Source: Thermoproteota archaeon (GTDB lineage Archaea > Thermoproteota > Methanomethylicia > Methanomethylicales > Methanomethylicaceae). From it: a stretch of DNA of 64,000 nt. The position numbers and the translations under genes were made by a program. Within the stretch, counting starts at the first letter, position 1. Each line of letters opens with the position of its first letter. Positions 26,699 through 54,663 of the stretch are shown piece after piece. The notes beneath the pieces are model-generated. The model did not search any database and was not told where the DNA came from. It saw only the letters and a program-made list of their open reading frames with translations. The stretch is taken from NCBI GenBank assembly GCA_029887795.1, contig JARXPE010000001.1:1386-65385 (forward strand), given 5' to 3'.

Positions 26699-27271
26699 TT
26701 AGGTCTGTTGAGGGTGAGGAGAAGACCCTGCGATAATGCTGACTAGGGTCTTACGATCTATCTCGGCGCGGGTCCTCCACCCAATGTAGAGGTTGCCTTC
26801 CTCGTCCTCATCCAAATAGCCCCTTCTTATAAACCTGTTAAGGTCCTGATCGACCTTCCAGTCTGGGAATTTTTCCTTCAGAAGCTCCTCAACTTCCCTT
26901 CTATTAGCCCTCCCCTGCTTTGAGGTTATGTAAGCCAAGGCTGCCGCCAGAACGGCAAGTGTGTCTATCCTCCAGCCTGAAAGTGAGGTCTCGCCGATCT
27001 GGAGGGGGGACTTGCAGATGACGTAAAATCGGGCCTGCTCAAGGTCGGCCTCCGTGGGCGTTTGATGGTCTAGACCGTCCTCGTAGACGATCTTTATCTC
27101 CAGCCCAAGCTCCTCCAAACGCCTCTCCAGAAGTTTTATTATCTTCATGTAATCCTTGCCCAATACCTTCCTCAGCTCCCACCCCTTCGCGCCTGGCAGA
27201 CGGTGGTGCTGGAAGAGTAGGAGCTGGGCAGCCTTCTTTAGTTTTCTAGATATGGTGACGTCCTCACTCAT
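26699..27271 (-). CDS. scpB: ScpB-like tandem winged-helix (kite) protein
   Basis: 'LKKAAQLLLF' ScpB N-terminal WH signature. Second WH 'LAVLAAALAYITSKQGRANRREVEELL...RGYL...GNLYIGWRT' matches the ScpB pattern. 190 aa. Confidence 0.6.
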   Translation of the reverse strand: MSEDVTISRKLKKAAQLLLFQHHRLPGAKGWELRKVLGKDYMKIIKLLERRLEELGLEIKIVYEDGLDHQTPTEADLEQARFYVICKSPLQIGETSLSGWRIDTLAVLAAALAYITSKQGRANRREVEELLKEKFPDWKVDQDLNRFIRRGYLDEDEEGNLYIGWRTRAEIDRKTLVSIIAGSSPHPQQT

Positions 27272-27275
27272 TCCT

Positions 27276-28157
27276 TTATCCCTTCATTTTTATGCTATTC
27301 CTCATCGCCATCCATTTCTCATAGGTTATAGAGATCGGAACGGATTTTCCTCCCTTCCTTTGCGTCTGTTTTCCCACGGTCTCGATCATAATAGTCTCCT
27401 CTACAGGGTTGATAATGAGGTTGGCGTAGCCATTCGATATGATGAAGCTGAGCGCGTATGCCCGCAACAGCGTCTCCTCATAGGTGTCTCTGATTACGAA
27501 CTTCCAGTAGTCCACGGGACCTCCCTCTGACTCTTTTGTCAACTCCTCTTGTAGCCTCCTGACCTCTTCATTGAATGCACGCTCAGAGAGAAACTTTAGC
27601 CTAATTAGCTCCGAGACCGCCAAGGTCTTTTCCTCCTGGAACTGGGCCGCCTCGAGTTCTCTCATCCTCTGGGAGAGTGGAAGGAGAACCCTCCAGTAGT
27701 CTAGCGCCTCCGAGAGCCTCTTTGGGGTCAGCTGCTCGGCGGCTATCAAAGGCCTCCAAGAGGCTAATAGGGCGGAGGCGAGCTCCTCTTTGCCAAGAAG
27801 CTTTATCTTAACCTCCACTAGGAAAGGGTCGATGAAGAGACCAGAGGCACGCCTCTTCACCCAGTCGCTCTGAAGTTTTACCATCAGGGAGAGCTCCTTA
27901 AGGGCTTCGGCATCCATGAGCAGCTCGTCAAGAAGTTTCCACTGAGGCAATAGCTTCTTGAGAACCTGCAGCTTTTGGGGGACGTCCACAAGGAAAGGAT
28001 CCTCCCCCTTTGCCCTTATGCTCTGGCACAGGTTTATTATGCGAGCGAGCTCCTCGTAGTACTCTTCTTTACGCGCTCGCTGTGGCAGCTTTGGCCACCT
28101 CCGACCTTCCGTGCACATTTTGGACGAATATGATGTTTGCGAACTCGCCCACCGCAC
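27276..28157 (-). CDS. scpA: ScpA-like kleisin
   Basis: C-terminal 'RAYALSFIISNGYANLIINPVEETIMIE' resembles the ScpA C-terminal winged helix. 293 aa. The annotated start overlaps the upstream SMC-like gene by about 89 nt, so the true start may be internal. Confidence 0.5.
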   Translation of the reverse strand: MRWASSQTSYSSKMCTEGRRWPKLPQRARKEEYYEELARIINLCQSIRAKGEDPFLVDVPQKLQVLKKLLPQWKLLDELLMDAEALKELSLMVKLQSDWVKRRASGLFIDPFLVEVKIKLLGKEELASALLASWRPLIAAEQLTPKRLSEALDYWRVLLPLSQRMRELEAAQFQEEKTLAVSELIRLKFLSERAFNEEVRRLQEELTKESEGGPVDYWKFVIRDTYEETLLRAYALSFIISNGYANLIINPVEETIMIETVGKQTQRKGGKSVPISITYEKWMAMRNSIKMKG

Positions 28158-29832
28158 TGAGCTGGCTCGGGGTAATCACTATAAACTGCACGTCCGAGCT
28201 GTCGTTCATGAAGGAGAAGAGCATCCTCATCATGGACTCCCTGTTGTGGGGATCCATGTGCACATCGAACTCGTCGACAGCCCTCACTGGCGATTTCAGG
28301 TGATCCTGCAAGGCTAGGAGGAACGCCATGGTTGCCACAGCCCTCTCTCCACCGCTCTGAGAGTATGCATCTAACAATACTGGCGAGGTGCCCCGGAACC
28401 CAACCGTGATCTCCACTCCAGCCCTGTCCGGGTCGTCCATGTTCAATAGGCGTATGGCACCGGTTCCGCCGACCCTTCCCAGGACAGAACGGTAAGTCGG
28501 ATTGATCTCCTCGATGAGTTTTTCCATCACGCCCCTCCAGACCCTCTTCCTTTCCTCCAACTCCTCGATAGTCTTTTTCCTGTTCTCTCCTACGACCTGA
28601 GCCTTTTGCTTCAATTCGTTGTAGGTTTTCAAGTAGGCCTGGTACATGGAAGGAGCGTCCTCGGGCACGTCGCCCAGGGATAGCAGGTGAGCGTTAACAA
28701 ACTTTATCTCGTCGGAGATCTCCAAGAGCGTCCTGCTGGTCTCGATCCTTTCACCTGCCTTATCCTTGAACTTCTCTGACTCCGCAAGAGATGCCTTGGC
28801 CTCCTGCAAGGAATTTTGCAACTCCTTAAGCTCTCTCTCGAGCTCGCCCTTGCGGTAGCGCATCACTGCCTCGTCAACCCTCAGCTCCACATACTTTTTG
28901 ACGACCTCGTCAAGTCTCTCGTCTATAAGACCCAGCGCTCTCAGCTCTGCGTCCTCTTTTTTGGTATTCAGAATGAAGCTCCGAAACTTTTCCTTCAGCA
29001 GAAGATAGTCGCCCCATAGGTTGCGTGCCTCCTCGCTCTTTGTGCGGATCCCCTTCTCAATAGCCTCGAGCTGGGAGGACTTCAAGCGGATCTTCTCTTC
29101 GATCTGTGCCACCGCACGCTCGTTCTTCAATATTTGGGCCCATATCAACTCCCTCTCGAGGTAGGCCTTCCTTTCGAGCAGGGACTTCTTCTCATTGTAC
29201 TTGTCGTTCAGCTCCTTCCAGTAAGCCAAGGTTTGCTCGGCACTGGCAAGGAGTTGTGAGGTGGCCTCCTCTTCGCCCAGTATCCTGTTGAGCCTCTCCT
29301 CCGACTCGTAAATGGCGCGCCTGTACTGTGAAAACCCGACCGCCTCTTCCACCATCTTGAGCTTCTCTTCAGGCGAGGTTATCGCAAACTCCTCAATCAT
29401 GTTTTGGTGCATTATTATGAGCATGTTATCAGGATTCATCCCGACCCCTTTGAAAAGCCTGTTCACATCAAATTTGCTCACTTGTCTGCCGTTTATCTCG
29501 AACCAGTACGTGCCGTCCTTCTTCAAATACCTTGAGACTGAGATGATATCGTTGTTTATGTACGGGACGGGGCGCTTTCCATCTTCTGCCCTGTTGTCCA
29601 ATATGAGTGTGACCCTCGCAGTTTCCTTGCCCCTTCGGATGAGATCTGCCAGCTTCCTAGATCGCTCGGTGTAGCTCTGCCCCGTTGCCACTGATATAGC
29701 TATGAGTATCGACGACTTTCCAGCGCCGTTGGGACCACATATCAGATTGAGACCGCGTCTGAGGGGCACCCTAGCGTACTCATAGGACATGAAATTTTCC
29801 AATACCACTTCGAGTATGGTGAGAGAGCTCAT
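28069..29832 (-). CDS. Half-length hinge-less SMC-like ABC ATPase
   Basis: N-terminal head with Walker A 'GPNGAGKSS'. Central heptad-rich coiled-coil region of roughly 230 aa. C-terminal head with signature 'QSGGERAVATMAFLLAL' and D-loop 'VDEFDVHMD'. The H-loop is 'FIVITPS', with no His. 587 aa. Confidence 0.75.
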   Translation of the reverse strand: MSSLTILEVVLENFMSYEYARVPLRRGLNLICGPNGAGKSSILIAISVATGQSYTERSRKLADLIRRGKETARVTLILDNRAEDGKRPVPYINNDIISVSRYLKKDGTYWFEINGRQVSKFDVNRLFKGVGMNPDNMLIIMHQNMIEEFAITSPEEKLKMVEEAVGFSQYRRAIYESEERLNRILGEEEATSQLLASAEQTLAYWKELNDKYNEKKSLLERKAYLERELIWAQILKNERAVAQIEEKIRLKSSQLEAIEKGIRTKSEEARNLWGDYLLLKEKFRSFILNTKKEDAELRALGLIDERLDEVVKKYVELRVDEAVMRYRKGELERELKELQNSLQEAKASLAESEKFKDKAGERIETSRTLLEISDEIKFVNAHLLSLGDVPEDAPSMYQAYLKTYNELKQKAQVVGENRKKTIEELEERKRVWRGVMEKLIEEINPTYRSVLGRVGGTGAIRLLNMDDPDRAGVEITVGFRGTSPVLLDAYSQSGGERAVATMAFLLALQDHLKSPVRAVDEFDVHMDPHNRESMMRMLFSFMNDSSDVQFIVITPSQLSAVGEFANIIFVQNVHGRSEVAKAATASA

Positions 29833-30091: not shown

Positions 30092-31630
30092 ATGGGAAGC
30101 ATTGAGATAAAACAGCTAATACATAATGGGGTACTCATACCCGTTTACAAGCCAATTGGCTTCAAGATAAAGTTCAGGGGGAAGGAGATCGCACTTAGCC
30201 CAGAGCAAGAAGAGATGGCGGTGGCTTGGGTTAAGAAGCTCTCTACAGACTACATTAAGGACAAAGTTTTTGTGAAGAACTTCTTCAAGGACTTTGGAAA
30301 GGCTTTGGGGGTAAAGGGCAAGATAGGACCTGAAGATTTTGATTTCTCGGAGATAATAGCCTGGTTGGAGAGGGAGAAGGCTAAGAAGGAGGCGATGAGC
30401 AAAGAGGAGAAGAAGGCGCTGGCGCAGGAGAGGAAGAGGATAAGAGAGGAGAATAAGAAGAAGTACGGCTTCGCGATTGTTAATGGAATGCCGATGGAGA
30501 TCTCCAACTACATGGTGGAGCCAGCCTGCATTTTCATGGGTAGAGGGGAGCACCCTCTTAGGGGTAGATGGAAACCAGGGGTCAAGGCAGAGGACATTAC
30601 GCTGAACCTCTCCCCAGACGCAAGGGTGCCCGATCCGCCGAATGGAGGCTCTTGGAAGTCCGTTGTGTTTGATCCCACATCGCTCTGGATCGCCAGTTGG
30701 AGGGACAAGCTCAGGGGCAAGATGAAGTACGTTTGGCTCTCAGACACGGCATACATAAAACAGGTGCGGGACATCGAGAAGTTTAACAAAGCTTGGGAGC
30801 TGGAAAAAATAATCGACAAGGTCAGGGAGCACATACAGAGGGGTTTGGAGTCGCACGATCAGCTTGAGAGGAAGATAGCGACCGTCTGTTACCTCATTGA
30901 CGAGCTGAAGCTCAGGGTCGGTGATGAGAAGGATGAGGATGAGGCGGACACGGTTGGCGCGACTACACTTAGACCCGAACATCTGAAGTTCAATCCGGAC
31001 GGCACCATAACTTTTGACTTCTTAGGCAAGGACTCTGTACGATGGGTCAGCACCATCAATCCGCCCGAGGTCGTCTATAGGAACTTGAAGGAGTTCATAG
31101 CAGAGGGAAACGAGACCATATTCAACGGGGTCAGATCGCAGAAGGTGAACGCATACCTAGCCGAGGTAATGCCTGGGCTGACTGCCAAGGTTTTCAGGAC
31201 TTACCACGCCTCCACAGCCACAAAGAGGGCTCTCCAAAGCGCCGATGTTGACAAAGAAGATCCGGTCTACGTCAAAAAGTACTATGCAACCATGGCGAAT
31301 TTGGAGGCTGCCAAGGTTTGCAACCACAAGAGGAAACTTCCCAAGAATTGGGAGGAGAGTCTAAGGAAGAAGGTTGAGAGGCTGAAGGCTCTCAAGGAGA
31401 AGAAGGCCAAAAAAGAGAAGATAGAGGAACTTAAGCTCAAGATAAATGCGATGAAGGCTACGAGAGATTACAATCTCAACACATCGCTGAAGAACTACAT
31501 CGATCCCAGGGTCTATGCCGACTGGGGGAGAAGGATAGATTTCGACTGGAAGCTTTACTATCCAAAATCGCTGCAGAGGAGGTTTGCTTGGGTGGATGGA
31601 GGAGAGACCGGAGTAGGTCCGATTATTTAA
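30092..31630 (+). CDS. Eukaryote-type DNA topoisomerase IB
   Basis: Core-domain motifs and the C-terminal active-site 'SLKNYIDPR' (catalytic Tyr about residue 469) in an SKxxY context. 512 aa. Confidence 0.85.
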   Translation: MGSIEIKQLIHNGVLIPVYKPIGFKIKFRGKEIALSPEQEEMAVAWVKKLSTDYIKDKVFVKNFFKDFGKALGVKGKIGPEDFDFSEIIAWLEREKAKKEAMSKEEKKALAQERKRIREENKKKYGFAIVNGMPMEISNYMVEPACIFMGRGEHPLRGRWKPGVKAEDITLNLSPDARVPDPPNGGSWKSVVFDPTSLWIASWRDKLRGKMKYVWLSDTAYIKQVRDIEKFNKAWELEKIIDKVREHIQRGLESHDQLERKIATVCYLIDELKLRVGDEKDEDEADTVGATTLRPEHLKFNPDGTITFDFLGKDSVRWVSTINPPEVVYRNLKEFIAEGNETIFNGVRSQKVNAYLAEVMPGLTAKVFRTYHASTATKRALQSADVDKEDPVYVKKYYATMANLEAAKVCNHKRKLPKNWEESLRKKVERLKALKEKKAKKEKIEELKLKINAMKATRDYNLNTSLKNYIDPRVYADWGRRIDFDWKLYYPKSLQRRFAWVDGGETGVGPII

Positions 31631-49162: not shown

Positions 49163-49444
49163 TTGTTGTTTGGTTTTTTAGAAAATTCACAATGCTTATA
49201 TTGCCCACAAAATAAAAAGTCGTTGAGGAGGATTAATGTGGGTAGAGTTGCTGTTTTAACAGCCTTTGCCGTAATAGGTTACTTCCTTGGAGTGGCTGCA
49301 TACTACATGGGCAAGAACCTCACGCCATGGCTTGAGAAGATATCGCCCTTCCTTGTGAACGCAGACTGGGTTATAGCAGGAGTAATAGGTGCAATTGTTA
49401 CAGTAATCGTAGTAGTAGTCTGGTCTTACACAACAAAAAGTTAA
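49163..49444 (+). CDS. Small membrane protein, hypothetical
   Basis: Two hydrophobic segments 'VAVLTAFAVIGYFLGVAAYY' and 'VIAGVIGAIVTVIVVVVW'. Start uncertain. Confidence 0.3.
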   Translation: MLFGFLENSQCLYCPQNKKSLRRINVGRVAVLTAFAVIGYFLGVAAYYMGKNLTPWLEKISPFLVNADWVIAGVIGAIVTVIVVVVWSYTTKS

Positions 49445-50769
49445 GTGGGAATTGCGCTTTTTTCTGGTAGTTTTATTCCCTCTTTACTCTTTGGTTTGCT
49501 GATCAGTTTGTATTGTATGAGCCAATGGTTTTCTTCAGAACTGAATATGCTATCCACCCTCACTGCGTCGAAGCCAAATACATCAAGAAGGCCCAAGAGA
49601 TAAAGACCCCATATGGACGGGGGTATATCGAAACCCCTTTCGTATGCCATTTTGTAATAGGCAGAGAGGTTTCCTGAAAGTTCTAATGTCAATATGTTTG
49701 GCTCCGCGTCATATGTGAGTTTGGATTCTACGCCCTCGTATAATAGATAAAGAGAACCCAAGAGATTTAATGACTCCTGCAAATCGGGGAGGATTAGTGA
49801 ATACTTTGTGGAGTTTATGATTCTGCTACCTAGCTCTCCCAAAAAAGAGAGCATCTTCTTACCCATCTTTACTGATAGGGCATCCATTAGGACAAAGAAG
49901 AAGATAGGCTCGAGCGGGTTTGTTCTGGCACCTGCAAAATACTCCCTGAGCTGTGGAGTGTGAATAAGTGGTAGCATTGTGGGCAGGTCAACTGCAATGC
50001 TCCAGTTCATGCCGGATATGAGAGAGTCTAGAGAGGAGCAGGCCTCTATCCCGGTGAAATATTCTGCCATTAGACATCTGGTTTTTTTATCTGTAAGAGT
50101 TATCCGCTTAAAGACCAACAGATCACGACCATCGGCAAGTATCAAATTGTTTTGGGGAGAGAACGGGATGTATTTTATGTCTATTAGGTCCGAAAATCTG
50201 CTGAGTAGAACAGAGTCGTCCTGTCCAGCCTCCATCATAATTTGAATGTGAACATCGGACTTTGAAACTGAATTAATGGAGTCGTAGCAGTTGTAAAATA
50301 GTACTTCCAGCCCTTCGTGGTTTAGCAACAGGCGGACGTCTTTTGAGGCGTTCGTCAGGATCTCCTTAATCCGCTTTATGGTCTCTTCATCGCTTCGGGT
50401 AATCCAATACTTTCGCTCTTCCAGCTTTTCTGAGGATGAGGAGGTTTCGTGGATCTTCCTCAGTTCCATTATGGCACTTTTCATGAGCTTCAGGTCTTTT
50501 TCCAATTCCTTTATTGGATCCACTAGGGCATTTATCGGGACTAGAGCCTTTGCTTTTTGCGGTTTGCCAGGAAATAGTGTGACGAGTTGGCGCTTCTCTA
50601 AGCTCTTAAGAACAGGATAAACCTTTGTCCTTGGAACTTTGCTATGTGCAGCGATATCTTTTATACCGCAGGCCCCCCTTTGTAAAAGGGTGAGGTAGAC
50701 CCTAGACTCATACTCCGTCAGACCAAACTTGGTCAATGCTTGAATCAAGTCTTTGGGTTGTAACTCCAA
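49441..50769 (-). CDS. TrmB-family transcriptional regulator with large uncharacterised C-terminal domain
   Basis: N-terminal 'GLTEYESRVYLTLLQRGACGIKDIAAHSKVPRTKVYPVLKSLEKRQLV' TrmB-type wHTH. The remaining roughly 330 aa carry no recognisable motif. Confidence 0.7.
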   Translation of the reverse strand: MELQPKDLIQALTKFGLTEYESRVYLTLLQRGACGIKDIAAHSKVPRTKVYPVLKSLEKRQLVTLFPGKPQKAKALVPINALVDPIKELEKDLKLMKSAIMELRKIHETSSSSEKLEERKYWITRSDEETIKRIKEILTNASKDVRLLLNHEGLEVLFYNCYDSINSVSKSDVHIQIMMEAGQDDSVLLSRFSDLIDIKYIPFSPQNNLILADGRDLLVFKRITLTDKKTRCLMAEYFTGIEACSSLDSLISGMNWSIAVDLPTMLPLIHTPQLREYFAGARTNPLEPIFFFVLMDALSVKMGKKMLSFLGELGSRIINSTKYSLILPDLQESLNLLGSLYLLYEGVESKLTYDAEPNILTLELSGNLSAYYKMAYERGFDIPPSIWGLYLLGLLDVFGFDAVRVDSIFSSEENHWLIQYKLISKPKSKEGIKLPEKSAIPT

Positions 50770-50866
50770 TAACTGTCACCGGAGTAACAGGCTCTGCGGT
50801 TACACTATACTCTGGTCACACGAGCCTTATAAAGTTTGGGATTTTACCGTAGAGTGGTGACCGAAA

Positions 50867-51505
50867 GTGAGCAAATTTGTGGAGAAATGGGAGGCCAAAG
50901 AGACTCCCAGCCTAGGGACTAGAGTTAAAGAAACAATTAGACCACCAGGTCCACTGAAGCCACGCTTGGATGCTGCCATCCGATCGATACAACTCCAGAT
51001 ACAGAAGTTAGAAATTGCCAATCAGAGGTTCCAAGAAAGGGACAGGGTGATGTTCAGTAAAGTCGTGGATGCTTACTCAAAACATGATATGGATCACGCT
51101 AAAATTTATGCTAATGAGTTGGCCGAAATTAGAAAGATGTCAAAGATGTTGATGCAAGCCAAGATGGCCCTCGAGCAGATCGTGATGAGGTTGAGCACTG
51201 TCACAGAGCTTGGTGACATAGTGGTTACACTTGCTCCAGCCATGGGTGTGATAAAGAGTGTAAAGACAGGAATTTCGACGTTATTGCCAGAGGCCGAGAA
51301 GGAATTCGGCGATATCAGCACAACGCTCAGCAGTATACTCGTAGACGCAGGACAGAGCGCAGGGCTCAGTCTAAACTTCGATTCTGCCAACGAGGACGCC
51401 ATGAAGATCCTCAACGAGGCGGCGGCCATAGCCGAGCAGAAAGTGAGGGAGAAGTTCCCAGAGTTACCGACAGGTGTGGCCACGGGAGAGAAGACAGGGT
51501 TCTAG
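50867..51505 (+). CDS. cdvB: ESCRT-III/Snf7-family protein (CdvB paralog, no winged helix)
   Basis: 'AKIYANELAEIRKMSKML...LEQIVMRL' Snf7-like core, parallel to the downstream CdvB. 212 aa. Confidence 0.7.
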   Translation: MSKFVEKWEAKETPSLGTRVKETIRPPGPLKPRLDAAIRSIQLQIQKLEIANQRFQERDRVMFSKVVDAYSKHDMDHAKIYANELAEIRKMSKMLMQAKMALEQIVMRLSTVTELGDIVVTLAPAMGVIKSVKTGISTLLPEAEKEFGDISTTLSSILVDAGQSAGLSLNFDSANEDAMKILNEAAAIAEQKVREKFPELPTGVATGEKTGF

Positions 51506-51632
51506 GAGAGCAAAAATGGCCACATCAAGACCCTCTTTTTTTACATCAACGCCGAGATACATAGAGAAGGTGTTTAAAAGCTTACAAGGAGCCCCATATC
51601 CCCAGACAGCCTAGTCCGAGAGGTGGAGTCGC

Positions 51633-52442
51633 TTGTTTAAGAGATTTTTTAGGCGGGCTCCACCTCTCAAGGACGCCCTAAATGACGCTATAATTAGGCT
51701 AACTCAACAGAAAAGAAAGTTAGAGATTCTCAGTTTAAAGATAAAAAGTAGGGAGAAAGCCCTCTTTGACTCAGTCACTATCGCTATAGAGAGGAAGGAT
51801 CCAGAGAGGGCAAAGATATATGCCAATGAGCTTGCCGAGGTTAAGAAAGTTCAGAAAAATGTAAAGAAGAGTATCCTAGTTTTGGAGCAGTTAGTAATCA
51901 GGATGGAGACGCTAAGAGAATTTGGGACGGCTTTTGCCCAATTAAAGCCCACACTGGAGGTGGTTAAGCAGGTCTCGGATCAGCTTTCGGAGGTAATGCC
52001 GGAGGTCTCCAACGAGCTCTCCAACATTGGAAGTGTCTTAGGGGACGCACTAATAGGTGTAAACATAAACTTGATGCAGGAAGAACTCCTCATTAATATG
52101 CCAAACTGTGATAAGATAATTGAAGAGGCAGCCGGTTATCTGAGCGAGAAGATTGAAAACGAGCTGCCTGTCCCTCCGATCGATGTTAGAACTGCTATTG
52201 CTATCGGCGGCGAAAGTGATGAAGAGTTTTTGGTTTCGAGCGGCAAAAATATCGACCCAGATGAGGCGGTTCTTTCATATTTAAAGGAGAATCAAGGTAA
52301 GTTGAACATAAAAGAGTGTAGCAGGCTATTTCAGATTCCAGAGGAAGAAATACCAAAAATTGTGGAAAGCTTATCAAGGAAGGGTTTAATTAAGATATTG
52401 ATAGTTGAGGGAATAACACATGGCGTTCGCAGCAGCAAATGA
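51633..52442 (+). CDS. cdvB: ESCRT-III-like cell-division protein CdvB with C-terminal winged-helix domain
   Basis: Snf7 core 'ERAKIYANELAEVKKVQKNV' plus C-terminal wH 'LSYLKENQGKLNIKECSRLFQIPEEEIPKIVESLSRKGLI'. 269 aa. Confidence 0.8.
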   Translation: MFKRFFRRAPPLKDALNDAIIRLTQQKRKLEILSLKIKSREKALFDSVTIAIERKDPERAKIYANELAEVKKVQKNVKKSILVLEQLVIRMETLREFGTAFAQLKPTLEVVKQVSDQLSEVMPEVSNELSNIGSVLGDALIGVNINLMQEELLINMPNCDKIIEEAAGYLSEKIENELPVPPIDVRTAIAIGGESDEEFLVSSGKNIDPDEAVLSYLKENQGKLNIKECSRLFQIPEEEIPKIVESLSRKGLIKILIVEGITHGVRSSK

Positions 52443-53610
52443 GATAGAGGCGGCGGCAATAAAGTATGCCAAAGAAGCTACGAGATTGGACCAACAGGGC
52501 TCCAAGGGTCTTGCAATAACCTATTATCAGAAGGCAATAGATGCCTTTCTCAAGCTTGTTAACCTATATCCGAATTATGAGTTGAACAAGGTTTACATTC
52601 AGCGTGCCATGATGTACCAAGAGAGGATAAAGGTCCTGCAGGTCGGGGCAGCAGCCGAGACACCTGAGGATACCTTGGAGATCAAGCCCATAAATAAAGA
52701 AGTAGAACAGAAGACCGAAGGCGCAGTGCCACAGAGAAAGGCGGCTTATGAGGACCTTTTGATAGTTGAAAAGCCAAATGTTAGATGGGAAGATGTTTCG
52801 GGTCTTGAGGAGACTAAAAAAGCACTCAAAGAGGCCATAATATACCCGTCAAAAAGACCAGATCTCTTCCCGCTGGGTTTTCCCAGGGGGATACTGCTCT
52901 ATGGACCACCTGGGTGCGGCAAGACGCTCACAGCCGCAGCGGTTGCAACTGAAATAGATGCGGCGTTCTATTCTGTTGACGCTGCATCTATTATGTCAAA
53001 ATGGTTGGGCGAGGCAGAGAAGAATGTTGCCAAGTTGTTTAGGTCAGCCAGAGAAGCCGCCATCAGCCAAGGTGCTGCGATCATATTCATTGATGAGATA
53101 GACTCGCTTTTGGGGGTACGCTACAATGAGGTCGGTGGAGAGGTTAGGGTCCGAAACCAATTCCTTAAAGAAATGGACGGGATACTCGACAAGGGCAAGA
53201 GTTGGCCACTTTATGTAATCGGCGCCACCAACAAACCATGGGCTCTAGACTGGGCATTCATAAGAAGATTTCAGAAGAGGATTTATGTTCCCGTGCCAGA
53301 TTTCGAAACACGACTCAAGATATACCAGCTGTACACGCAGAAACTTGTAATGGAAGGGGTTGATCTGGAAGAGGTAGCTAGACTCTCCGAGGGATACTCT
53401 GGCAGCGATATCAGAGACATTTGCCAAGCAGTACAGCTTAGGGTTGTAAGCGAACTTTTCGAGTCAGGAAAAATCTCGGACATGAAAGCCAGACCGCGAC
53501 CAATCACAATGGATGATTTCAGATACGTAATCTCACGACGGAAGCCAAGCATTACTCAGGAAATGATAAAAGCATACGAAGTTTGGGCTGAAAACTTCAA
53601 GGCTACGTGA
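52420..53610 (+). CDS. cdvC: Vps4-like AAA+ ATPase CdvC with N-terminal MIT domain
   Basis: MIT-like N-terminus 'AIKYAKEATRLDQQG...YYQKAIDAF'. AAA Walker A 'GPPGCGKT', Walker B 'IIFIDEIDS'. 23-nt overlap with cdvB. Confidence 0.85.
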   Translation: MAFAAANEIEAAAIKYAKEATRLDQQGSKGLAITYYQKAIDAFLKLVNLYPNYELNKVYIQRAMMYQERIKVLQVGAAAETPEDTLEIKPINKEVEQKTEGAVPQRKAAYEDLLIVEKPNVRWEDVSGLEETKKALKEAIIYPSKRPDLFPLGFPRGILLYGPPGCGKTLTAAAVATEIDAAFYSVDAASIMSKWLGEAEKNVAKLFRSAREAAISQGAAIIFIDEIDSLLGVRYNEVGGEVRVRNQFLKEMDGILDKGKSWPLYVIGATNKPWALDWAFIRRFQKRIYVPVPDFETRLKIYQLYTQKLVMEGVDLEEVARLSEGYSGSDIRDICQAVQLRVVSELFESGKISDMKARPRPITMDDFRYVISRRKPSITQEMIKAYEVWAENFKAT

Positions 53611-53682: not shown

Positions 53683-54663
53683 ATGAAGATAAACATTGAT
53701 TGGATACTGGCACATGGAGATAGTGACGGGATATGTTCGGCGGCTATCGCCCTCTCGGCATTTAAAAACGCCAAACTCTTCTTTTCACATCCAGTCGGAC
53801 TTGCAACTGATTTGAGACAGGTCGACGGAAACCTTCTAGTTGTGGACATAGCCTTACCATCGAGGGACCACCACGAAGTACTTGGCGAGTTGCGGCGGAT
53901 ATCTGACGCTGGTCACAAAATAATATATATAGATCATCACCCATACCCGCCAAACTTTTCTTCGGAGGATTTTTCGGGAGAGTTGATCCATTCCCTGAAT
54001 GCCAGCGCCTCCGAACTTACCTACATGAGGTTCAAGAACCGCCTTGATCCTCATATGAGTAGAGTAGCTATTTATGGGGCGATAGGTGACTATCTGGACA
54101 GAACATACAATGTTGAGCGTCTGCTGGAACTTTGGGATAAAAGGCTCCTTTATCTAGAGAGCGGATTGTTGGTTCAAGCCATAGAGTCTATGGGAAGAAA
54201 TCATGACGCAAAAAGGGAGTTGGCAAGGTACCTTTCTGAGAACAACCTTCCCAGTGCAGACGAGAAGATCGTAAAAAGGGCGATCTCGGAGACCATTATA
54301 GAGGAAGACATGCGCAAGGTCATTGAGGCGGAGGCTAAGGTTGTGGGCAACATCGCGTATGTCATCGATCTCAAATGGTCGATGGGAAAATCTGCAATTT
54401 ACGCTAGGGCTGCAAAGAATGTTATGGTAGGTGTTGGTGCCGAAAGCAGAAAGGATTTTGTGGATATGAGTCTAAGGACGCCAGTAGAAGGACTTGAATT
54501 AAATAAGTCTGTGATCGAAGTAGCAGGAAGAATGGGAGGGAGCGGCGGTGGACATGCTAAAGCCGCGGGGGCAAGAGTGCCGAGGGAGAAGTTTAAAGAT
54601 TTTCTGGAGGAGCTCAACTCGTTGATATTGAGCAAGACCCGGAATAAAACTGTGGAGTATTGA
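53683..54663 (+). CDS. DHH/DHHA1-family phosphoesterase (NrnA-like nanoRNase/pAp phosphatase)
   Basis: 'HGDSDG' motif I, 'IDHH' DHH motif, DHHA1 'GGSGGGH'. 326 aa. Confidence 0.75.
   Translation: MKINIDWILAHGDSDGICSAAIALSAFKNAKLFFSHPVGLATDLRQVDGNLLVVDIALPSRDHHEVLGELRRISDAGHKIIYIDHHPYPPNFSSEDFSGELIHSLNASASELTYMRFKNRLDPHMSRVAIYGAIGDYLDRTYNVERLLELWDKRLLYLESGLLVQAIESMGRNHDAKRELARYLSENNLPSADEKIVKRAISETIIEEDMRKVIEAEAKVVGNIAYVIDLKWSMGKSAIYARAAKNVMVGVGAESRKDFVDMSLRTPVEGLELNKSVIEVAGRMGGSGGGHAKAAGARVPREKFKDFLEELNSLILSKTRNKTVEY

What the first reader, a model, noticed from the sequence alone, without database searches (positions are those of the whole stretch)
49441..53610. cdvB–cdvB–cdvC cluster without cdvA, divergent from a 442-aa TrmB-family protein
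Two ESCRT-III/Snf7 paralogs are followed by a Vps4-like MIT-AAA ATPase, overlapping by 23 nt. The first paralog (212 aa) lacks a winged helix. The second (269 aa) carries a C-terminal winged helix ('...KECSRLFQIPEEEIPKIVESLSRKGLI'). In Sulfolobus the CdvB winged helix binds the CdvA C-terminal peptide, but no CdvA (PRC-barrel plus coiled coil) is encoded here. Instead, a large TrmB-family protein is transcribed divergently about 100 nt upstream. It has an N-terminal TrmB wHTH plus an uncharacterised C-terminal domain of about 330 aa. It could be a dedicated regulator of the division genes, or a partner for the CdvB winged helix.
Basis: partly seen in the sequence, partly recalled or inferred. 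Interest (0 to 1): 0.55.

Follow-up and report, generated by a model that had tools for sequence, protein, structure and literature searches.

The report
Conserved TrmB-type regulator of archaeal division genes
Next to the ESCRT-like cell-division genes of this methanogen-related archaeon sits a DNA-binding regulator. The regulator and its palindromic binding site are conserved beside those genes across several archaeal classes, including ammonia oxidisers, which gives a testable candidate for how these archaea switch division genes on and off.

Summary
Window 49441-53610 holds a 442-aa TrmB-family gene (- strand), 97 nt from and divergent to cdvB1/2-like (212 aa), cdvB with a winged helix (269 aa) and cdvC (396 aa). 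cdvB and cdvC overlap by 23 nt, and no cdvA is in the 64 kb.

The organism is Methanomethylicia (Verstraetearchaeota), not Nitrososphaeria. Lack of CdvA in that class is already published.

The adjacency is not incidental. In 52 of 80 genome loci that encode a relative of the TrmB-like protein, cdvB1 lies divergently upstream. These loci span Methanomethylicia, several Nitrososphaeria lineages and one 'Thermoprotei' MAG. Seven Nitrosopumilus-type loci keep a degenerate version.

The shared intergenic region carries a palindrome, TGTCAC-N4-GTGACA, that resembles the TrmBL1 operator TATCAC-N5-GTGATA, plus extra half-sites bracketing both TATA boxes. The motif is almost exclusive to this spot. 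It is absent from Bathyarchaeia, whose cluster is cdvB1-cdvA-cdvB-cdvC without the TrmB gene.

The 'uncharacterised' C-terminal region is a TrmBL2-like coiled coil and PLD-like domain plus a family-specific domain with a weak Bet3/H-NOX-like fold.

Best reading: a dedicated, probably signal-sensing, autoregulated transcription factor for the cdv genes. The idea that it replaces CdvA as the partner of the winged helix finds no support. A conserved 68-aa membrane protein also travels with the cluster.

The parts
49238..49444 (+). Small 2-TM membrane protein (68 aa, MGR...WSYTTKS), convergent with the TrmB-like gene. It is a conserved companion of cdv clusters.
   Evidence: Called as 68 aa on the source contigs. 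It is homologous to the small protein divergent from cdvB1 in Bathyarchaeia (BLASTP 4e-18). The homologue lies next to the cluster in the window and in 40 loci. The family has 458 clusters, no Pfam model, and all members are named 'hypothetical'.
49441..50769 (-). TrmB-family protein, 442 aa (whole gene).
   Evidence: PF01978 E 1.6e-18. Full-length homologues at 45-93% identity occur in Methanomethylicia and at 20-34% in Nitrososphaeria. AF2 model has mean pLDDT 83.6.
50545..50757 (-). Winged helix-turn-helix DNA-binding domain (aa 5-75). Recognition helix is VPRTKVYP, with invariant P46 R47 T48 K49 Y51.
   Evidence: Y51 corresponds to the DNA-recognition Tyr50 of TrmB listed in PMC4158304.
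50437..50532 (-). Long helix (aa 80-111), which is the dimerisation coiled coil in TrmB/TrmBL2.
   Evidence: AF2 secondary structure. Foldseek matches the whole TrmBL2 chain 5bpd (E 1.8e-15) and TrmB 3qph.
50011..50412 (-). PLD-like alpha/beta domain (aa 120-253), equivalent to the N-terminal subdomain of the TrmB effector-binding domain.
   Evidence: Weak Pfam PF11495 hit on 122-230. Many orthologues carry precomputed PF11495. Foldseek hits 2f5t (E 3.5e-7), Nuc, Zucchini and PLD.
49498..49908 (-). Family-specific C-terminal alpha+beta domain (aa 288-424) with a Bet3/H-NOX/BcsD-like fold. Putative sensor or interaction domain.
   Evidence: No Pfam or PDB sequence hit. Domain-only AF2 model has pLDDT 81.7 and pTM 0.76. 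Foldseek hits Bet3/TRAPPC3, H-NOX and BcsD at E 4e-4 to 1e-2, TM 0.4-0.5. A profile search of 1.84 billion representatives finds only 30 hits. About 20 are full-length proteins of ~340-460 aa with the domain at the C-terminus. The rest are short fragments and four weak multi-stretch matches to long proteins.
49444..49497 (-). Disordered C-terminal tail (aa 425-442). Other Methanomethylicia carry a semi-conserved ...EK-x4-5-[DE]EK[EQ]hh-x-Kh[TSN] end. Nitrososphaeria orthologues have no tail.
   Evidence: pLDDT <50. Alignment A1, last block. C-terminal sequences.
50770..50866 (.). Divergent control region (97 nt) shared by the TrmB-like gene and cdvB1.
   Evidence: Start-to-start spacing is held at 89-99 nt in Methanomethylicia (one outlier locus at 109) and 90-91 nt in one Nitrososphaeria group. 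It is mostly 106-114 nt in the Nitrososphaerales-type loci, four of which measure 193-268 with uncertain start codons. It is the densest cluster of GTNACA/TGTNAC half-sites in the whole 64-kb window: 4 observed against 0.115 expected.
50774..50789 (.). Predicted operator palindrome TGTCACCGGAGTAACA (consensus TGTCAC-N4-GTGACA).
   Evidence: It is the only match in the window at <=2 mismatches. Its position is conserved in the relatives, and perfect palindromes occur in L020, L021, L025 and L053. In 854 kb of loci, 4/4 perfect and 32/33 one-mismatch matches lie in this spacer. For the relaxed pattern TGTNAC-N4-GTNACA, all 21 matches in 1.24 Mb lie in this spacer.
50799..50805 (.). Extra half-site GTTACAC, 9 nt after the palindrome.
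   Evidence: Nearly invariant in alignment A3. The same palindrome-N9-GTTACAC composite occurs in Nitrosopumilus L060.
50806..50814 (-). AT-richer stretch, likely the weak TATA box of the TrmB-like promoter (inferred).
   Evidence: Read from the sequence and alignment A3. Position inferred from the archaeal rule that the TATA box sits about -26/-27 from the start site (PMC4158304). Not verified.
50815..50821 (.). Extra half-site GTCACAC, directly upstream of the cdvB1 BRE/TATA.
   Evidence: The GT[CT]ACA core is invariant in A3.
50827..50833 (+). TATA box TTATAAA of the cdvB1 promoter.
   Evidence: Conserved in A3 (five of seven positions invariant, the other two in at least 90% of rows; one divergent locus reads TATTTAA). 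It lies ~34-40 nt upstream of the GTG start.
50856..50860 (+). GGTGA, probably the Shine-Dalgarno of cdvB1 (6 nt before the GTG). It also resembles a half-site.
   Evidence: Sequence. The mirror-image GGTGA (reverse complement of 50776-50780) lies 6 nt before the TrmB-like TTG. This is a caveat for the left half of the palindrome.
50867..51505 (+). cdvB1/B2-class ESCRT-III (212 aa, no winged helix). The ...FPELP motif at the C-terminus is MIM2-like (by eye).
   Evidence: NCBIfam CdvB1_B2, 198 bits over 3-206. It is 57-98% identical in the 52 loci, 57-64% outside Methanomethylicia, and 60-65% identical to Bathyarchaeial proteins.
51506..51632 (+). 127-nt gap in the position that cdvA occupies in Bathyarchaeia and L027. 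It holds a T7 run (51536-51542), a TATA-like TTTAAAA (51573-51579) and the SD GAGGTGGAG (51620-51628). It has no GTNAC palindrome.
   Evidence: Sequence. Bathyarchaeial order cdvB1-cdvA-cdvB-cdvC. L027.
51633..52442 (+). cdvB-class ESCRT-III with a MIM2-like LPVPP motif and a C-terminal winged helix (aa 210-255 = nt 52260-52397).
   Evidence: 9s97 CdvB2 E 3e-22; 9s9j CdvB E 6e-14; 2xvc_A winged helix E 0.001.
52420..53610 (+). cdvC/Vps4 (MIT, AAA, AAA-lid, Vps4_C). Overlaps cdvB by 23 nt.
53683..54663 (+). DHH/DHHA1 phosphoesterase (326 aa), directly downstream. Syntenic in Methanomethylicia. Membership of the module is uncertain.
   Evidence: Pfam DHH + DHHA1 and weak RecJ-family hits. It is found downstream of cdvC in every Methanomethylicia locus that extends far enough past cdvC, except L019. 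A 25-28% identical DHH gene lies beside the TrmB-like gene in five of the seven Nitrosopumilus-type loci, with only a short fragment match in a sixth.

Best explanation
The 442-aa protein is a sequence-specific TrmB-family transcription factor dedicated to the ESCRT-III/Vps4 (Cdv) division locus.

Proposed mechanism:
1. It binds as a dimer, through its wHTH and coiled coil, to the palindrome TGTCAC-N4-GTGACA at 50774-50789 (inferred).
2. The palindrome lies over the predicted start site and 5' leader of its own gene, so binding should give autorepression.
3. Further copies probably bind the half-sites at 50799-50805 and 50815-50821. These bracket its own weak TATA box and abut the BRE/TATA of cdvB1.
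4. This sets transcription of cdvB1 and, by read-through, possibly cdvB-cdvC.
5. The C-terminal PLD-like domain and the family-specific Bet3/H-NOX-like domain would receive the signal (a small molecule, lipid or protein partner) that changes DNA binding.

Shown here: the domain architecture, the conserved divergent gene pair, the conserved and locus-specific palindrome, and its co-occurrence with the TrmB-like gene.

Inferred: actual DNA binding, the sign of regulation (repressor, activator or both, as for TrmBL1/Tgr), the signal, and any link to the cell cycle.
For: (1) Architecture. The protein has a TrmB wHTH (E 1.6e-18), and the recognition-helix residues P46 R47 T48 K49 Y51 are invariant in 61 family members. 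Y51 equals the DNA-contacting Tyr50 of TrmB (PMC4158304). Residues ~1-255 superpose on the whole TrmBL2 chain and on TrmB (5bpd E 1.8e-15, 3qph, 2f5t).

(2) Conserved divergent pairing. In 52 of 80 genome loci found through the TrmB-like protein, cdvB1 lies immediately upstream on the other strand. In the loci long enough to show them, cdvB and cdvC follow. The loci come from Methanomethylicia, Nitrososphaeria of several lineages and one 'Thermoprotei' MAG. Spacing is constrained to 89-99 nt in most Methanomethylicia and 90-91 nt in one Nitrososphaeria group. The Nitrososphaerales-type loci have longer spacers. Seven Nitrosopumilus-type loci keep the order TrmB-like <-> divergent ESCRT-III - arCOG08707-like - cdvC.

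(3) Operator. The palindrome is the only match in the 64-kb window. The TGTCACC, GTTACA, GT[CT]ACA and TATA blocks are conserved (largely invariant) while the spacers between them vary. In 854 kb of loci, 4/4 perfect and 32/33 one-mismatch matches lie in this spacer. For the relaxed pattern, all 21 matches in 1.24 Mb lie there. Half-site density is 4 against 0.115 expected, the maximum of the whole window.

(4) Co-occurrence. Five Bathyarchaeia-type clusters that lack the TrmB-like gene also lack the palindrome (best match 4-5 mismatches) and have 0-1 half-sites upstream of cdvB1. An additional TrmB-type locus has the palindrome.

(5) Family precedent. The motif resembles the TrmBL1/Tgr operator TATCAC-N5-GTGATA. 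TrmB regulators repress when the site lies at or after the TATA box, activate when it lies upstream, and commonly autoregulate (PMC4158304).

(6) The C-terminal domain is confined to this family, as expected for a dedicated sensor.
Against: - There is no experimental evidence of binding or regulation in any organism.
- The left half of the palindrome overlaps the reverse complement of a GGTGA Shine-Dalgarno 6 nt from the TrmB-like start codon. The GGTGACC before cdvB1 is most simply an SD too. Part of the conservation in Methanomethylicia could therefore be translational. In Nitrososphaeria and Nitrosopumilus the palindrome lies too far from the start codon for this.
- The second promoter-like region, before cdvB-cdvC (51573-51579), has no such motif, so direct control may be limited to cdvB1 and the regulator itself.
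- The best structural match, TrmBL2, is a non-specific chromatin protein.
- Many of the 52 loci are close relatives, so the counts are not independent events.
- The L027 orthologue has only a degenerate palindrome (3 mismatches).
- The fold assignment of the C-terminal domain is weak (TM 0.4-0.5) and no ligand can be named.
Confidence: 0.72

Rival explanations
1. The TrmB-like protein is a structural partner of the division machinery. In CdvA-less Methanomethylicia it would take over CdvA's role by binding the 'orphan' CdvB winged helix (or the CdvC MIT domain), for instance through its disordered C-terminal tail, and would tether the ESCRT-III ring to DNA.
For: - CdvB keeps a winged helix that aligns to the CdvA-binding one (2xvc_A), although CdvA is absent.
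- Methanomethylicia orthologues have a semi-conserved, disordered C-terminal tail that Nitrososphaeria orthologues lack.
- CdvA itself has been reported to associate with DNA (PMC3132758, cited).
Against: - The TrmB-like gene co-occurs with a cdvA-like gene inside the same cluster in L027.
- It is conserved in Nitrososphaeria, which are reported to have CdvA.
- No PRC barrel or CdvA coiled-coil domain is present.
- No E3B-like motif of the Bathyarchaeial type (LPEPPxVVHVK) occurs in it or in any cluster protein.
- Nitrososphaerales CdvB also seems to carry the winged helix, while their TrmB-like proteins have no tail.
- The window's own tail departs from the class consensus.
- The architecture and operator fit an ordinary transcription factor.
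Confidence: 0.07
2. The adjacency is inherited synteny without functional coupling. The protein would be a TrmB-type metabolic (for example sugar-responsive) regulator that controls other genes and merely shares a bidirectional promoter region with cdvB1.
For: - Sources annotate the family as 'sugar-specific transcriptional regulator TrmB'.
- The published ESCRT neighbourhood tables list the gene as arCOG02037 but do not flag it as part of the system.
- Only local neighbourhoods were scanned for further operator copies, not whole genomes.
Against: - The pairing survives across classes in which the other flanking genes differ.
- The sugar-binding subdomain, with TrmB's G320/E326 residues, is replaced by another domain.
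- The operator is confined to this spacer in 1.24 Mb of sampled sequence and is missing wherever the gene is missing.
- Conserved divergent regulator-operon pairs are a well-established indicator of a regulator-target relation (general knowledge).
Confidence: 0.08
3. It is a TrmBL2-like nucleoid-associated protein that coats DNA without sequence specificity. Its gene would be co-located with division genes because chromatin state and division are co-expressed.
For: The best fold match over ~265 residues is TrmBL2, an archaeal chromatin protein (5bpd, E 1.8e-15). TrmBL2 also lacks the sugar-binding subdomain (PMC4158304).
Against: - A precise, conserved palindrome with one-turn spacing sits at its own promoter.
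- The protein carries an additional family-specific C-terminal domain absent from TrmBL2.
- Its own TATA box is weak, which does not suggest an abundant chromatin protein.
- The family is narrow, not a general chromatin component.
Confidence: 0.06
4. The conserved GTNAC elements are real cis-elements but belong to something else. They could be Shine-Dalgarno and promoter elements, or the site of a different, unlinked transcription factor. The TrmB-like protein would then bind elsewhere.
For: GGTGA motifs lie exactly 6 nt before both start codons. Bathyarchaeial cdvB1 promoters carry a different conserved element (GCATGTTAnCAATG-like), so cdvB1 promoters are under lineage-specific control in any case.
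Against: - The right half of the palindrome and the two downstream half-sites cannot be SD sequences.
- In Nitrososphaerales and Nitrosopumilus the palindrome lies 30-85 nt from the TrmB-like start.
- Presence and absence of the motif track presence and absence of the TrmB-like gene.
- The half-site core TCAC/GTGA is that of the TrmBL1 operator.
Confidence: 0.07

Closest known systems
TrmBL1 / Tgr of Thermococcales (TrmB family, binds the TGM operator TATCAC-N5-GTGATA)
   Same: - N-terminal TrmB wHTH with the conserved recognition Tyr, a coiled-coil helix and a PLD-like domain.
- A palindromic operator with the same TCAC...GTGA core and about one-turn spacing.
- Site positions (at its own start site, and upstream of or abutting a neighbouring TATA box) that in TrmBL1/Tgr give repression and activation respectively.
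- Autoregulation is common in the family.
   Different: - The sugar-binding C-terminal subdomain is replaced by a family-specific Bet3/H-NOX-like domain.
- The spacer is N4, not N5.
- The apparent target is a division locus rather than glycolytic or gluconeogenic genes.
- The site was found only at this locus in the sequence sampled.
- NCBIfam scores are far below the equivalog cut-offs (70 against 650 bits).
TrmBL2 (TK0471/PF0496), archaeal chromatin protein
   Same: Best structural match over wHTH + coiled coil + PLD-like domain (5bpd, E 1.8e-15). Both lack the sugar-binding subdomain.
   Different: TrmBL2 is 264 aa, abundant and binds DNA non-specifically. The protein here has ~180 extra residues forming another domain and is paired with a specific palindrome.
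aCcr1/aCcr2/aCcr3 and CCTF1 of Sulfolobales (cell-cycle transcription factors that repress division genes)
   Same: They are transcription factors proposed or shown to control cdv and other division genes (PMC12704734). They are the only known regulators of ESCRT-based division in archaea.
   Different: aCcr1 is a small ribbon-helix-helix protein (its homologues aCcr2 and aCcr3 are described as aCcr1-like). These regulators are not encoded next to the cdv operon. They are described only in Sulfolobales and, for aCcr1, their viruses. The protein here is a TrmB-family member with sensor-like domains, encoded divergently from cdvB1, in Methanomethylicia and Nitrososphaeria.
CdvA (PRC barrel + coiled coil + E3B peptide)
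   Same: It is encoded within cdv clusters. It is the known partner of the CdvB winged helix and has been reported to associate with DNA.
   Different: There is no PRC barrel, CdvA coiled-coil domain or E3B-like peptide here. The TrmB-like gene co-occurs with cdvA in L027. It is not a CdvA analogue on present evidence.
Bathyarchaeial cdv cluster: small TM protein <-> cdvB1-cdvA-cdvB-cdvC
   Same: It has orthologous cdvB1 (60-65% identity), cdvB and cdvC in the same order, and the same small membrane protein at the edge.
   Different: It has cdvA between cdvB1 and cdvB, where the window has a 127-nt gap. It lacks the TrmB-like gene and the palindrome.

Membership tests
TrmB family of transcription regulators | N-terminal TrmB-type winged HTH (PF01978) | tested here: met
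   66.8 bits against a cut-off of 25.6, E 1.6e-18, residues 12-76.
TrmB family of transcription regulators | Conserved DNA-recognition tyrosine in the recognition helix (Tyr50 in TrmB) | tested here: met
   Y51 is invariant in 61 family members, within the invariant segment P46 R47 T48 K49 x Y51. Reference residue taken from PMC4158304.
TrmB family of transcription regulators | Coiled-coil dimerisation helix followed by the PLD-like N-terminal subdomain of the effector-binding domain (PF11495) | tested here: met
   AF2 helix 80-111 and alpha/beta domain 120-253. Foldseek hits 5bpd, 3qph and 2f5t. The Pfam PF11495 score for this protein is only 19.4 bits (cut-off 22.2), but the domain is recorded for many orthologues.
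TrmB family of transcription regulators | C-terminal sugar-binding subdomain (Gly320/Glu326 of TrmB), needed for 'sugar-specific' regulators | tested here: not met
   The PF11495 match stops at model position 105 of 233. The C-terminal 180 residues form a different fold with no Pfam or PDB sequence match. The source annotation 'sugar-specific' is therefore not justified.
TrmB family of transcription regulators | Palindromic operator at its own or a target promoter | tested here: met
   TGTCACCGGAGTAACA at 50774-50789. It is conserved, locus-specific, and co-occurs with the gene. This is in silico only.
TrmB family of transcription regulators | Demonstrated DNA binding and effector-dependent regulation | not testable with these tools
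   Needs EMSA, footprinting, in vitro transcription or ChIP.
Cdv (archaeal ESCRT-III/Vps4) division system | CdvB-class ESCRT-III with MIM2 and a C-terminal winged helix | tested here: met
   NCBIfam CdvB model covered to position 258/260. PDB 9s9j and 9s97 match the core and 2xvc_A matches the winged helix. The LPVPP motif is seen at aa 178-182 (by eye).
Cdv (archaeal ESCRT-III/Vps4) division system | CdvB1/B2-class ESCRT-III without a winged helix | tested here: met
   NCBIfam CdvB1_B2, 198 bits over 3-206 of 212 residues. This is below the 350-bit equivalog cut-off.
Cdv (archaeal ESCRT-III/Vps4) division system | CdvC/Vps4: MIT + AAA + Vps4_C | tested here: met
   Pfam MIT, AAA, AAA_lid_3 and Vps4_C. 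NCBIfam CdvC, 513 bits against a cut-off of 650.
Cdv (archaeal ESCRT-III/Vps4) division system | CdvA (PRC barrel + CdvA coiled coil + E3B) | tested here: not met
   There is no hit in the window by NCBIfam or Pfam on the unassigned ORFs, nor by tblastn with two Bathyarchaeial CdvA proteins at E<=10. Absence from the whole genome could not be tested here. The literature reports that Methanomethylicia encode only CdvB and CdvC (PMC9723716).
Bet3 / V4R / H-NOX-like small-molecule-binding fold (for aa 288-424) | Two-layer alpha+beta fold superposable on Bet3/TRAPPC3 or H-NOX, with a ligand pocket | tested here: inconclusive
   Foldseek hits are consistent but weak (2pwn, 2j3r, 7b6d, 7yh3, 1u56, BcsD; E 4e-4 to 1e-2; TM 0.40-0.51). 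There is no sequence-level match. The pocket and ligand were not examined.

The most novel reading that the evidence does not exclude
The TrmB-like protein is the master switch of ESCRT-based cell division in Methanomethylicia and Nitrososphaeria, including the globally abundant ammonia oxidisers. Its family-specific Bet3/H-NOX-like domain would sense a growth or membrane-derived cue (for example a lipid or metabolite). It would then release or activate cdvB1 (and cdvB/cdvC) transcription once per cell cycle. The co-travelling 68-aa two-helix membrane protein would be a previously unrecognised membrane-proximal component of the Cdv machinery.
Probability: 0.2. Interest if true: 0.8.

Novelty: new variant of a known kind. 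Interest (0 to 1): 0.6.

Why it matters
How ESCRT-III-based division is controlled is known only for Sulfolobales, through the RHH repressors aCcr1-3, CCTF1 and the proteasome. Nothing is known for Thaumarchaeota/Nitrososphaeria, which dominate ammonia oxidation in oceans and soils, or for Methanomethylicia.

This work yields a concrete, testable candidate regulator with a predicted operator. It is conserved from Nitrosopumilus and Nitrososphaerales lineages (some members of which are cultured) to Methanosuratincola, which has recently been cultured (own knowledge).

The work also orders the evolution of the locus:
- Ancestral form: small TM protein <-> cdvB1-cdvA-cdvB-cdvC, as in Bathyarchaeia.
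- Gain of the TrmB-like gene, as in L027.
- Loss or relocation of cdvA.

It flags an orphan CdvB winged helix in lineages without an E3B-bearing CdvA. It also flags a small membrane protein that accompanies cdv clusters in at least three, possibly four, classes.

In the library I could search, the TrmB gene appears only as an unflagged row in supplementary neighbourhood tables. I found no discussion of it.

Tried and rejected
- CdvA hidden in the window: rejected.
- A single 'uncharacterised 330-aa domain': rejected. It resolves into a coiled coil, a PLD-like domain and a Bet3/H-NOX-like domain.
- V4R or another Pfam family for the last domain: no sequence hit in Pfam for 14 members or in PDB by profile.
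- E3B-like peptide in the TrmB-like protein or its neighbours: none found with motifs derived from Bathyarchaeial CdvA C-termini.
- AlphaFold-Multimer of the tail or C-domain with the CdvB winged helix: not possible.
- Bacterial-type promoter and terminator scan: uninformative for an archaeon, with counts equal to shuffles.
- Rfam: no RNA family in the window.
- 'Cryptic ESCRT-III' next to the TrmB-like gene in Nitrosopumilus: real but already annotated as arCOG15281 in Makarova et al. 2024, so not new.
- Operator upstream of cdvB/cdvC in the 127-nt gap: none seen.
- Further operator copies (a regulon) in the window or in 1.24 Mb of loci: none outside the spacer.
- Literature search for a described TrmB-Cdv link: nothing relevant.

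Full report
WHAT IS THERE

- A 442-aa ORF on the minus strand (49441-50769).
- After a 97-nt spacer, three plus-strand ORFs of 212 aa (50867-51505), 269 aa (51633-52442) and 396 aa (52420-53610). The last two overlap by 23 nt.

Pfam and NCBIfam identify them as follows.
- A TrmB-type winged HTH protein (PF01978, E 1.6e-18).
- A CdvB1/B2-class ESCRT-III (198 bits, full length).
- A CdvB-class ESCRT-III whose match runs to the end of the 260-position CdvB model.
- CdvC/Vps4 (MIT, AAA, lid, Vps4_C; 513 bits).

The CdvB C-terminus (aa 210-255) aligns to 2XVC chain A, the Sulfolobus CdvB winged helix crystallised with the CdvA peptide (E 0.001). Gene calls on three NCBI assemblies that carry the identical TrmB-like protein agree on all lengths.

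No CdvA is present in the window. Unassigned ORFs give no CdvA or PRC hit. tblastn with two genuine CdvA proteins, obtained later from Bathyarchaeia, finds nothing in the window even at E<=10.

WHOSE GENOME

Close homologues of the TrmB-like protein (45-93% identity, full length) are named Methanomethylicaceae, Methanosuratincola or Verstraetearchaeota. The best genome loci are Methanomethylicia MAGs. NCBI places the family in Thermoproteota; Methanosuratincolia. This is therefore not a Nitrososphaeria genome. [quoted passage not shown] The missing cdvA is thus known for the class.

IS THE ADJACENCY CONSERVED?

I fetched 80 genome loci that encode relatives of the TrmB-like protein and searched them with the window's proteins.
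- 52 loci (L001-L048, L050-L053) have cdvB1 (57-98% identity) immediately upstream on the opposite strand. Wherever the contig is long enough, cdvB and cdvC follow. These loci are Methanomethylicia (26), several Nitrososphaeria lineages including Nitrososphaerales and unclassified Nitrososphaeria MAGs, and one 'Thermoprotei' MAG (L027).
- Seven Nitrosopumilus-type loci have cdvC about 1.2 kb upstream. The two genes in between are a very divergent ESCRT-III (pairwise E 8e-8 to CdvB1; NCBIfam CdvB1_B2 E 2.7e-5) and a coiled-coil protein.
- The remaining 21 loci, nearly all Bathyarchaeia, share only the N-terminal DNA-binding region and have no cdv genes nearby. They are other TrmB paralogues.

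Start-to-start spacing of the divergent pair is 89-99 nt in Methanomethylicia (one outlier locus at 109) and 90-91 nt in one Nitrososphaeria group. It is mostly 106-114 nt in the Nitrososphaerales-type loci, four of which measure 193-268 with uncertain start codons.

THE CONTROL REGION

The 97-nt spacer reads, from the TrmB-like start towards cdvB1:
- TGTCACCGGAGTAACA (50774-50789)
- N9
- GTTACAC (50799-50805)
- an AT-richer 9-mer
- GTCACAC (50815-50821)
- N5
- TTATAAA (50827-50833)
- GGTGACC (50856-50862)
- N4, then GTG.

An alignment of 17 divergent Methanomethylicia spacers keeps TGTCACC, GTTACA, GT[CT]ACA and the TATA box conserved (largely invariant) while the intervening bases vary freely. 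Perfect palindromes occur in relatives:
- TGTCACCAGAGTGACA in L020 and L021
- TGTCACCGCGGTGACA in L025
- TGTCACTGCGGTGACA in L053.

Nitrosopumilus has TGTAACTATGGTTACT followed, after 9 nt, by GTTACAC.

The palindrome is the only match in the 64-kb window at <=2 mismatches. In the 854 kb of the 52 loci, all 4 perfect and 32 of 33 one-mismatch matches lie in this spacer, which totals 6 kb. With the relaxed pattern TGTNAC-N4-GTNACA, all 21 matches in 1.24 Mb lie there. The spacer holds 4 GTNACA/TGTNAC half-sites against 0.115 expected (Poisson 7e-6). It is the densest such stretch in the window.

The motif resembles the TrmBL1/Tgr operator TATCAC-N5-GTGATA. According to the TrmB family review, sites at or downstream of the TATA box repress, sites upstream activate, and autoregulation is common (PMC4158304).

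With the archaeal rule of a TATA box at about -26/-27, the palindrome falls on the predicted start site and leader of the TrmB-like gene. The two extra half-sites flank that gene's weak TATA box and abut the cdvB1 BRE/TATA. These positions are inferred, not measured.

A CAVEAT ON THE OPERATOR

The reverse complement of 50776-50780 is GGTGA, 6 nt before the TrmB-like TTG. GGTGA at 50856-50860 lies 6 nt before the cdvB1 GTG. Both look like Shine-Dalgarno sequences. Part of the conservation of the left half-site in Methanomethylicia, and all of it for the 'fifth half-site', may therefore be translational. The right half of the palindrome and the two middle half-sites cannot be explained this way. 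In Nitrososphaeria and Nitrosopumilus the palindrome lies 14-85 nt from the start codon.

THE REVERSE TEST AND THE cdvA SLOT

Starting from CdvB1 homologues, I looked at Bathyarchaeial contigs.
- Their cluster is cdvB1-cdvA(PF18822)-cdvB-cdvC, preceded by a divergent small gene. It has no TrmB-like gene.
- Five such loci have no palindrome (best match 4-5 mismatches) and 0-1 half-sites upstream of cdvB1.
- A further TrmB-type locus (L091) has TGTCACCAAGGTTACA and three half-sites.
- Operator and regulator gene therefore appear and disappear together.

In the window, the place where cdvA lies in Bathyarchaeia is a 127-nt gap (51506-51632). It holds a T7 run, a TATA-like TTTAAAA and a strong SD, but no GTNAC palindrome. 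This suggests that cdvB-cdvC also have their own promoter.

L027 is the informative intermediate. Its order is small TM protein, TrmB-like (467 aa), then divergently cdvB1, a cdvA-like ORF (tblastn E 1.9e-6 to Bathyarchaeial CdvA; PF18822 E 4e-5, below the cut-off), cdvB and cdvC. The regulator and CdvA thus co-occur. This argues against the idea that the TrmB-like protein substitutes for CdvA.

WHAT THE PROTEIN LOOKS LIKE

An AF2 model built on 61 sequences (mean pLDDT 83.6) shows the following regions.
- wHTH (aa 5-75).
- A 32-residue helix (aa 80-111).
- An alpha/beta domain (aa 120-253).
- An alpha+beta domain (aa 288-424).
- A disordered tail.

Foldseek against the PDB matches the first ~265 residues to the whole TrmBL2 chain (5bpd, E 1.8e-15), to TrmB (3qph) and to the TrmB sugar-binding domain's PLD-like half (2f5t). 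PLD/Nuc/Zucchini folds follow.

The last domain has no Pfam or PDB sequence match. Modelled alone (pLDDT 81.7, pTM 0.76), it resembles Bet3/TRAPPC3, H-NOX and BcsD at E 4e-4 to 1e-2 and TM 0.40-0.51. This is a consistent but weak signal, so I call the fold assignment inconclusive.

A profile of this domain finds only 30 proteins among 1.84 billion representatives. About 20 are full-length proteins of ~340-460 aa with the domain at the C-terminus. The rest are short fragments and four weak multi-stretch matches to long proteins. The domain is therefore specific to this regulator family. The sugar-binding subdomain that justifies the label 'sugar-specific' is absent.

The recognition-helix residues P46 R47 T48 K49 Y51 are invariant across the family. 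Y51 matches TrmB Tyr50.

MOST LIKELY MECHANISM

The protein is a dimeric TrmB-family factor that binds the palindrome over its own start site, giving autorepression. Together with further copies on the flanking half-sites, it controls the back-to-back cdvB1 promoter. The PLD-like and Bet3/H-NOX-like domains modulate binding in response to an unknown signal. I put this at about 0.72.

Shown: the architecture, the synteny, the motif conservation, specificity and co-occurrence. Inferred: binding, the sign of regulation, the signal, and any cell-cycle role.

Rivals:
- Adaptor for the orphan winged helix, 0.07.
- Incidental synteny, 0.08.
- TrmBL2-like chromatin protein, 0.06.
- The motif belongs to something else, 0.07.

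COMPARISON WITH WHAT IS KNOWN

Regulators of cdv genes are known only in Sulfolobales: aCcr1-3 (aCcr1 is an RHH protein, aCcr2 and aCcr3 are its homologues) and CCTF1. All are repressors and none is encoded beside the operon (PMC12704734).

The 2024 ESCRT survey does not mention TrmB, wHTH or transcription in its text. Its supplementary neighbourhood tables list an arCOG02037 'TrmB' gene beside ESCRT-III/arCOG08707/Vps4 in Ca. Nitrosopumilus sediminis and Ca. Nitrosotenuis cloacae, without the '+' flag that marks system components. They also list a 241-aa arCOG02037 gene after cdvA/cdvB in Acidilobus.

Full-text searches for TrmB together with CdvB, Cdv, ESCRT or Vps4, and for Methanosuratincola or Methanomethylicia with Cdv or ESCRT, gave nothing relevant.

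I therefore rate this as a new variant of a known kind. It is a TrmB-family regulator with a new C-terminal domain and a new, conserved target. The adjacency is visible in published tables but has not been interpreted there.

SIDE OBSERVATIONS

(a) The small ORF convergent with the TrmB-like gene (68 aa, two predicted TM helices, MGR...WSY motif) is homologous to the small gene divergent from cdvB1 in Bathyarchaeia.
- It is found next to the cluster in the window and in 40 loci.
- The family has 458 clusters, no Pfam model and only 'hypothetical' names.
- Four of four further members, chosen only for long contigs, sit beside a cdv cluster.

(b) The cdvB next to cdvC in a Nitrososphaerales-type locus aligns through the winged-helix region. 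Two papers state that thaumarchaeal CdvB proteins lack it.

(c) A DHH/DHHA1 gene follows cdvC in Methanomethylicia. A related one lies beside the TrmB-like gene in five of the seven Nitrosopumilus-type loci.

(d) Elsewhere in the window are a eukaryotic-type topoisomerase IB and an SMC-like ATPase with a possible Nse4-like kleisin.

VERDICT

Interest is 0.6. This is not a new kind of system. It is a well-supported and apparently undescribed regulatory link, and it makes control of ESCRT-based division in Nitrososphaeria and Methanomethylicia directly testable.

Noticed in passing
window 49238-49444 (+); also L086 5559-5816, L088 5555-5773, L027 11436-11648, L089-L092 at 5001-5225: A 68-85-aa protein with two predicted TM helices (N-terminal MGR, C-terminal W[SA]Y) accompanies cdv clusters in Methanomethylicia, Nitrososphaeria, a 'Thermoprotei' MAG and Bathyarchaeia. 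It lies either divergent from cdvB1 or convergent with the TrmB-like gene. It has no Pfam family and every member is named 'hypothetical'. It is a candidate unrecognised Cdv-associated membrane component.
   Followed up: yes
window 51506-51632; L086 6682-7395; L027 8518-9225: The 127-nt gap between cdvB1 and cdvB is the position that cdvA occupies in Bathyarchaeia (cdvB1-cdvA-cdvB-cdvC) and in L027. This suggests cdvA was deleted from an ancestral four-gene cluster. No residual similarity to CdvA is detectable in the gap.
   Followed up: yes
L084 8198-9121 (-), L028 8323-9147 (-): The CdvB encoded next to cdvC in Nitrososphaerales-type and other Nitrososphaeria loci aligns through the winged-helix region of the window's CdvB and of the NCBIfam CdvB model (to position 250-257 of 260). 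Makarova 2024 and Frohn 2022 state that thaumarchaeal CdvB proteins lack this domain. That statement may hold only for Nitrosopumilales.
   Followed up: partly
window 53683-54663 (+); L060 11665-12747 (-): A DHH/DHHA1 phosphoesterase (weakly RecJ-like) follows cdvC in nearly all Methanomethylicia loci that extend that far. A 25-28% identical DHH protein lies beside the TrmB-like gene in most Nitrosopumilus-type loci. In the one locus read in full (L060) it has a Lys-rich KKVATKKPATKK N-terminus.
   Followed up: partly
window 49444-49497 (-), tail of the TrmB-like protein; alignment A1 columns ~430-452: Methanomethylicia orthologues end in a disordered tail with a semi-conserved ...EK-x4-5-[DE]EK[EQ]hh-x-Kh[TSN] motif. 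The window's own tail reads KEGIKLPEKSAIPT. Nitrososphaeria orthologues stop right after the last strand. It may be a short linear interaction motif. It was not tested.
   Followed up: no
L084 5820-8201 (-); L041 5718-8093: In a Nitrososphaerales-type lineage the gene called at the cdvC position is 793 aa. The tblastn match to the window's CdvC is split by about 1 kb inside the AAA domain, which suggests an intein or other insertion.
   Followed up: no
L086 5817-6000, L088 5774-6000, L087 700-920: Bathyarchaeial cdvB1 upstream regions share a different conserved element (approximately GCATGTTAnCAATG...AATAATAC). cdvB1 there may be controlled by another factor.
   Followed up: no
window 30092-31630 (+): A eukaryotic-type DNA topoisomerase IB (Pfam Topoisom_I_N, Topoisom_I, Topo_C_assoc; E 1e-61 to 3e-70). 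NCBIfam gave no hit. Among archaea this enzyme is best known from Thaumarchaeota (own knowledge).
   Followed up: partly
window 26699-29832 (-): Three co-directional genes: an SMC_N-type ATPase (587 aa), a 293-aa protein with a weak Nse4_C (kleisin-like) hit, and a 190-aa protein with no hit. They may form a small SMC-like complex.
   Followed up: no
L012 2906-3493 (-): One Methanomethylicaceae genome has a second CdvB1-like paralogue (50% identity) about 700 nt downstream of the TrmB-like gene.
   Followed up: no
Makarova 2024 mBio supplementary file 9, Acidilobus saccharovorans ASAC_RS06275-06295: In Acidilobus the order is an 85-aa 'uncharacterized membrane protein' (arCOG08395), cdvA, a CdvB paralogue, then a 241-aa arCOG02037 TrmB gene. 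The link between TrmB, a small membrane protein and cdv genes may extend to Crenarchaeota.
   Followed up: no
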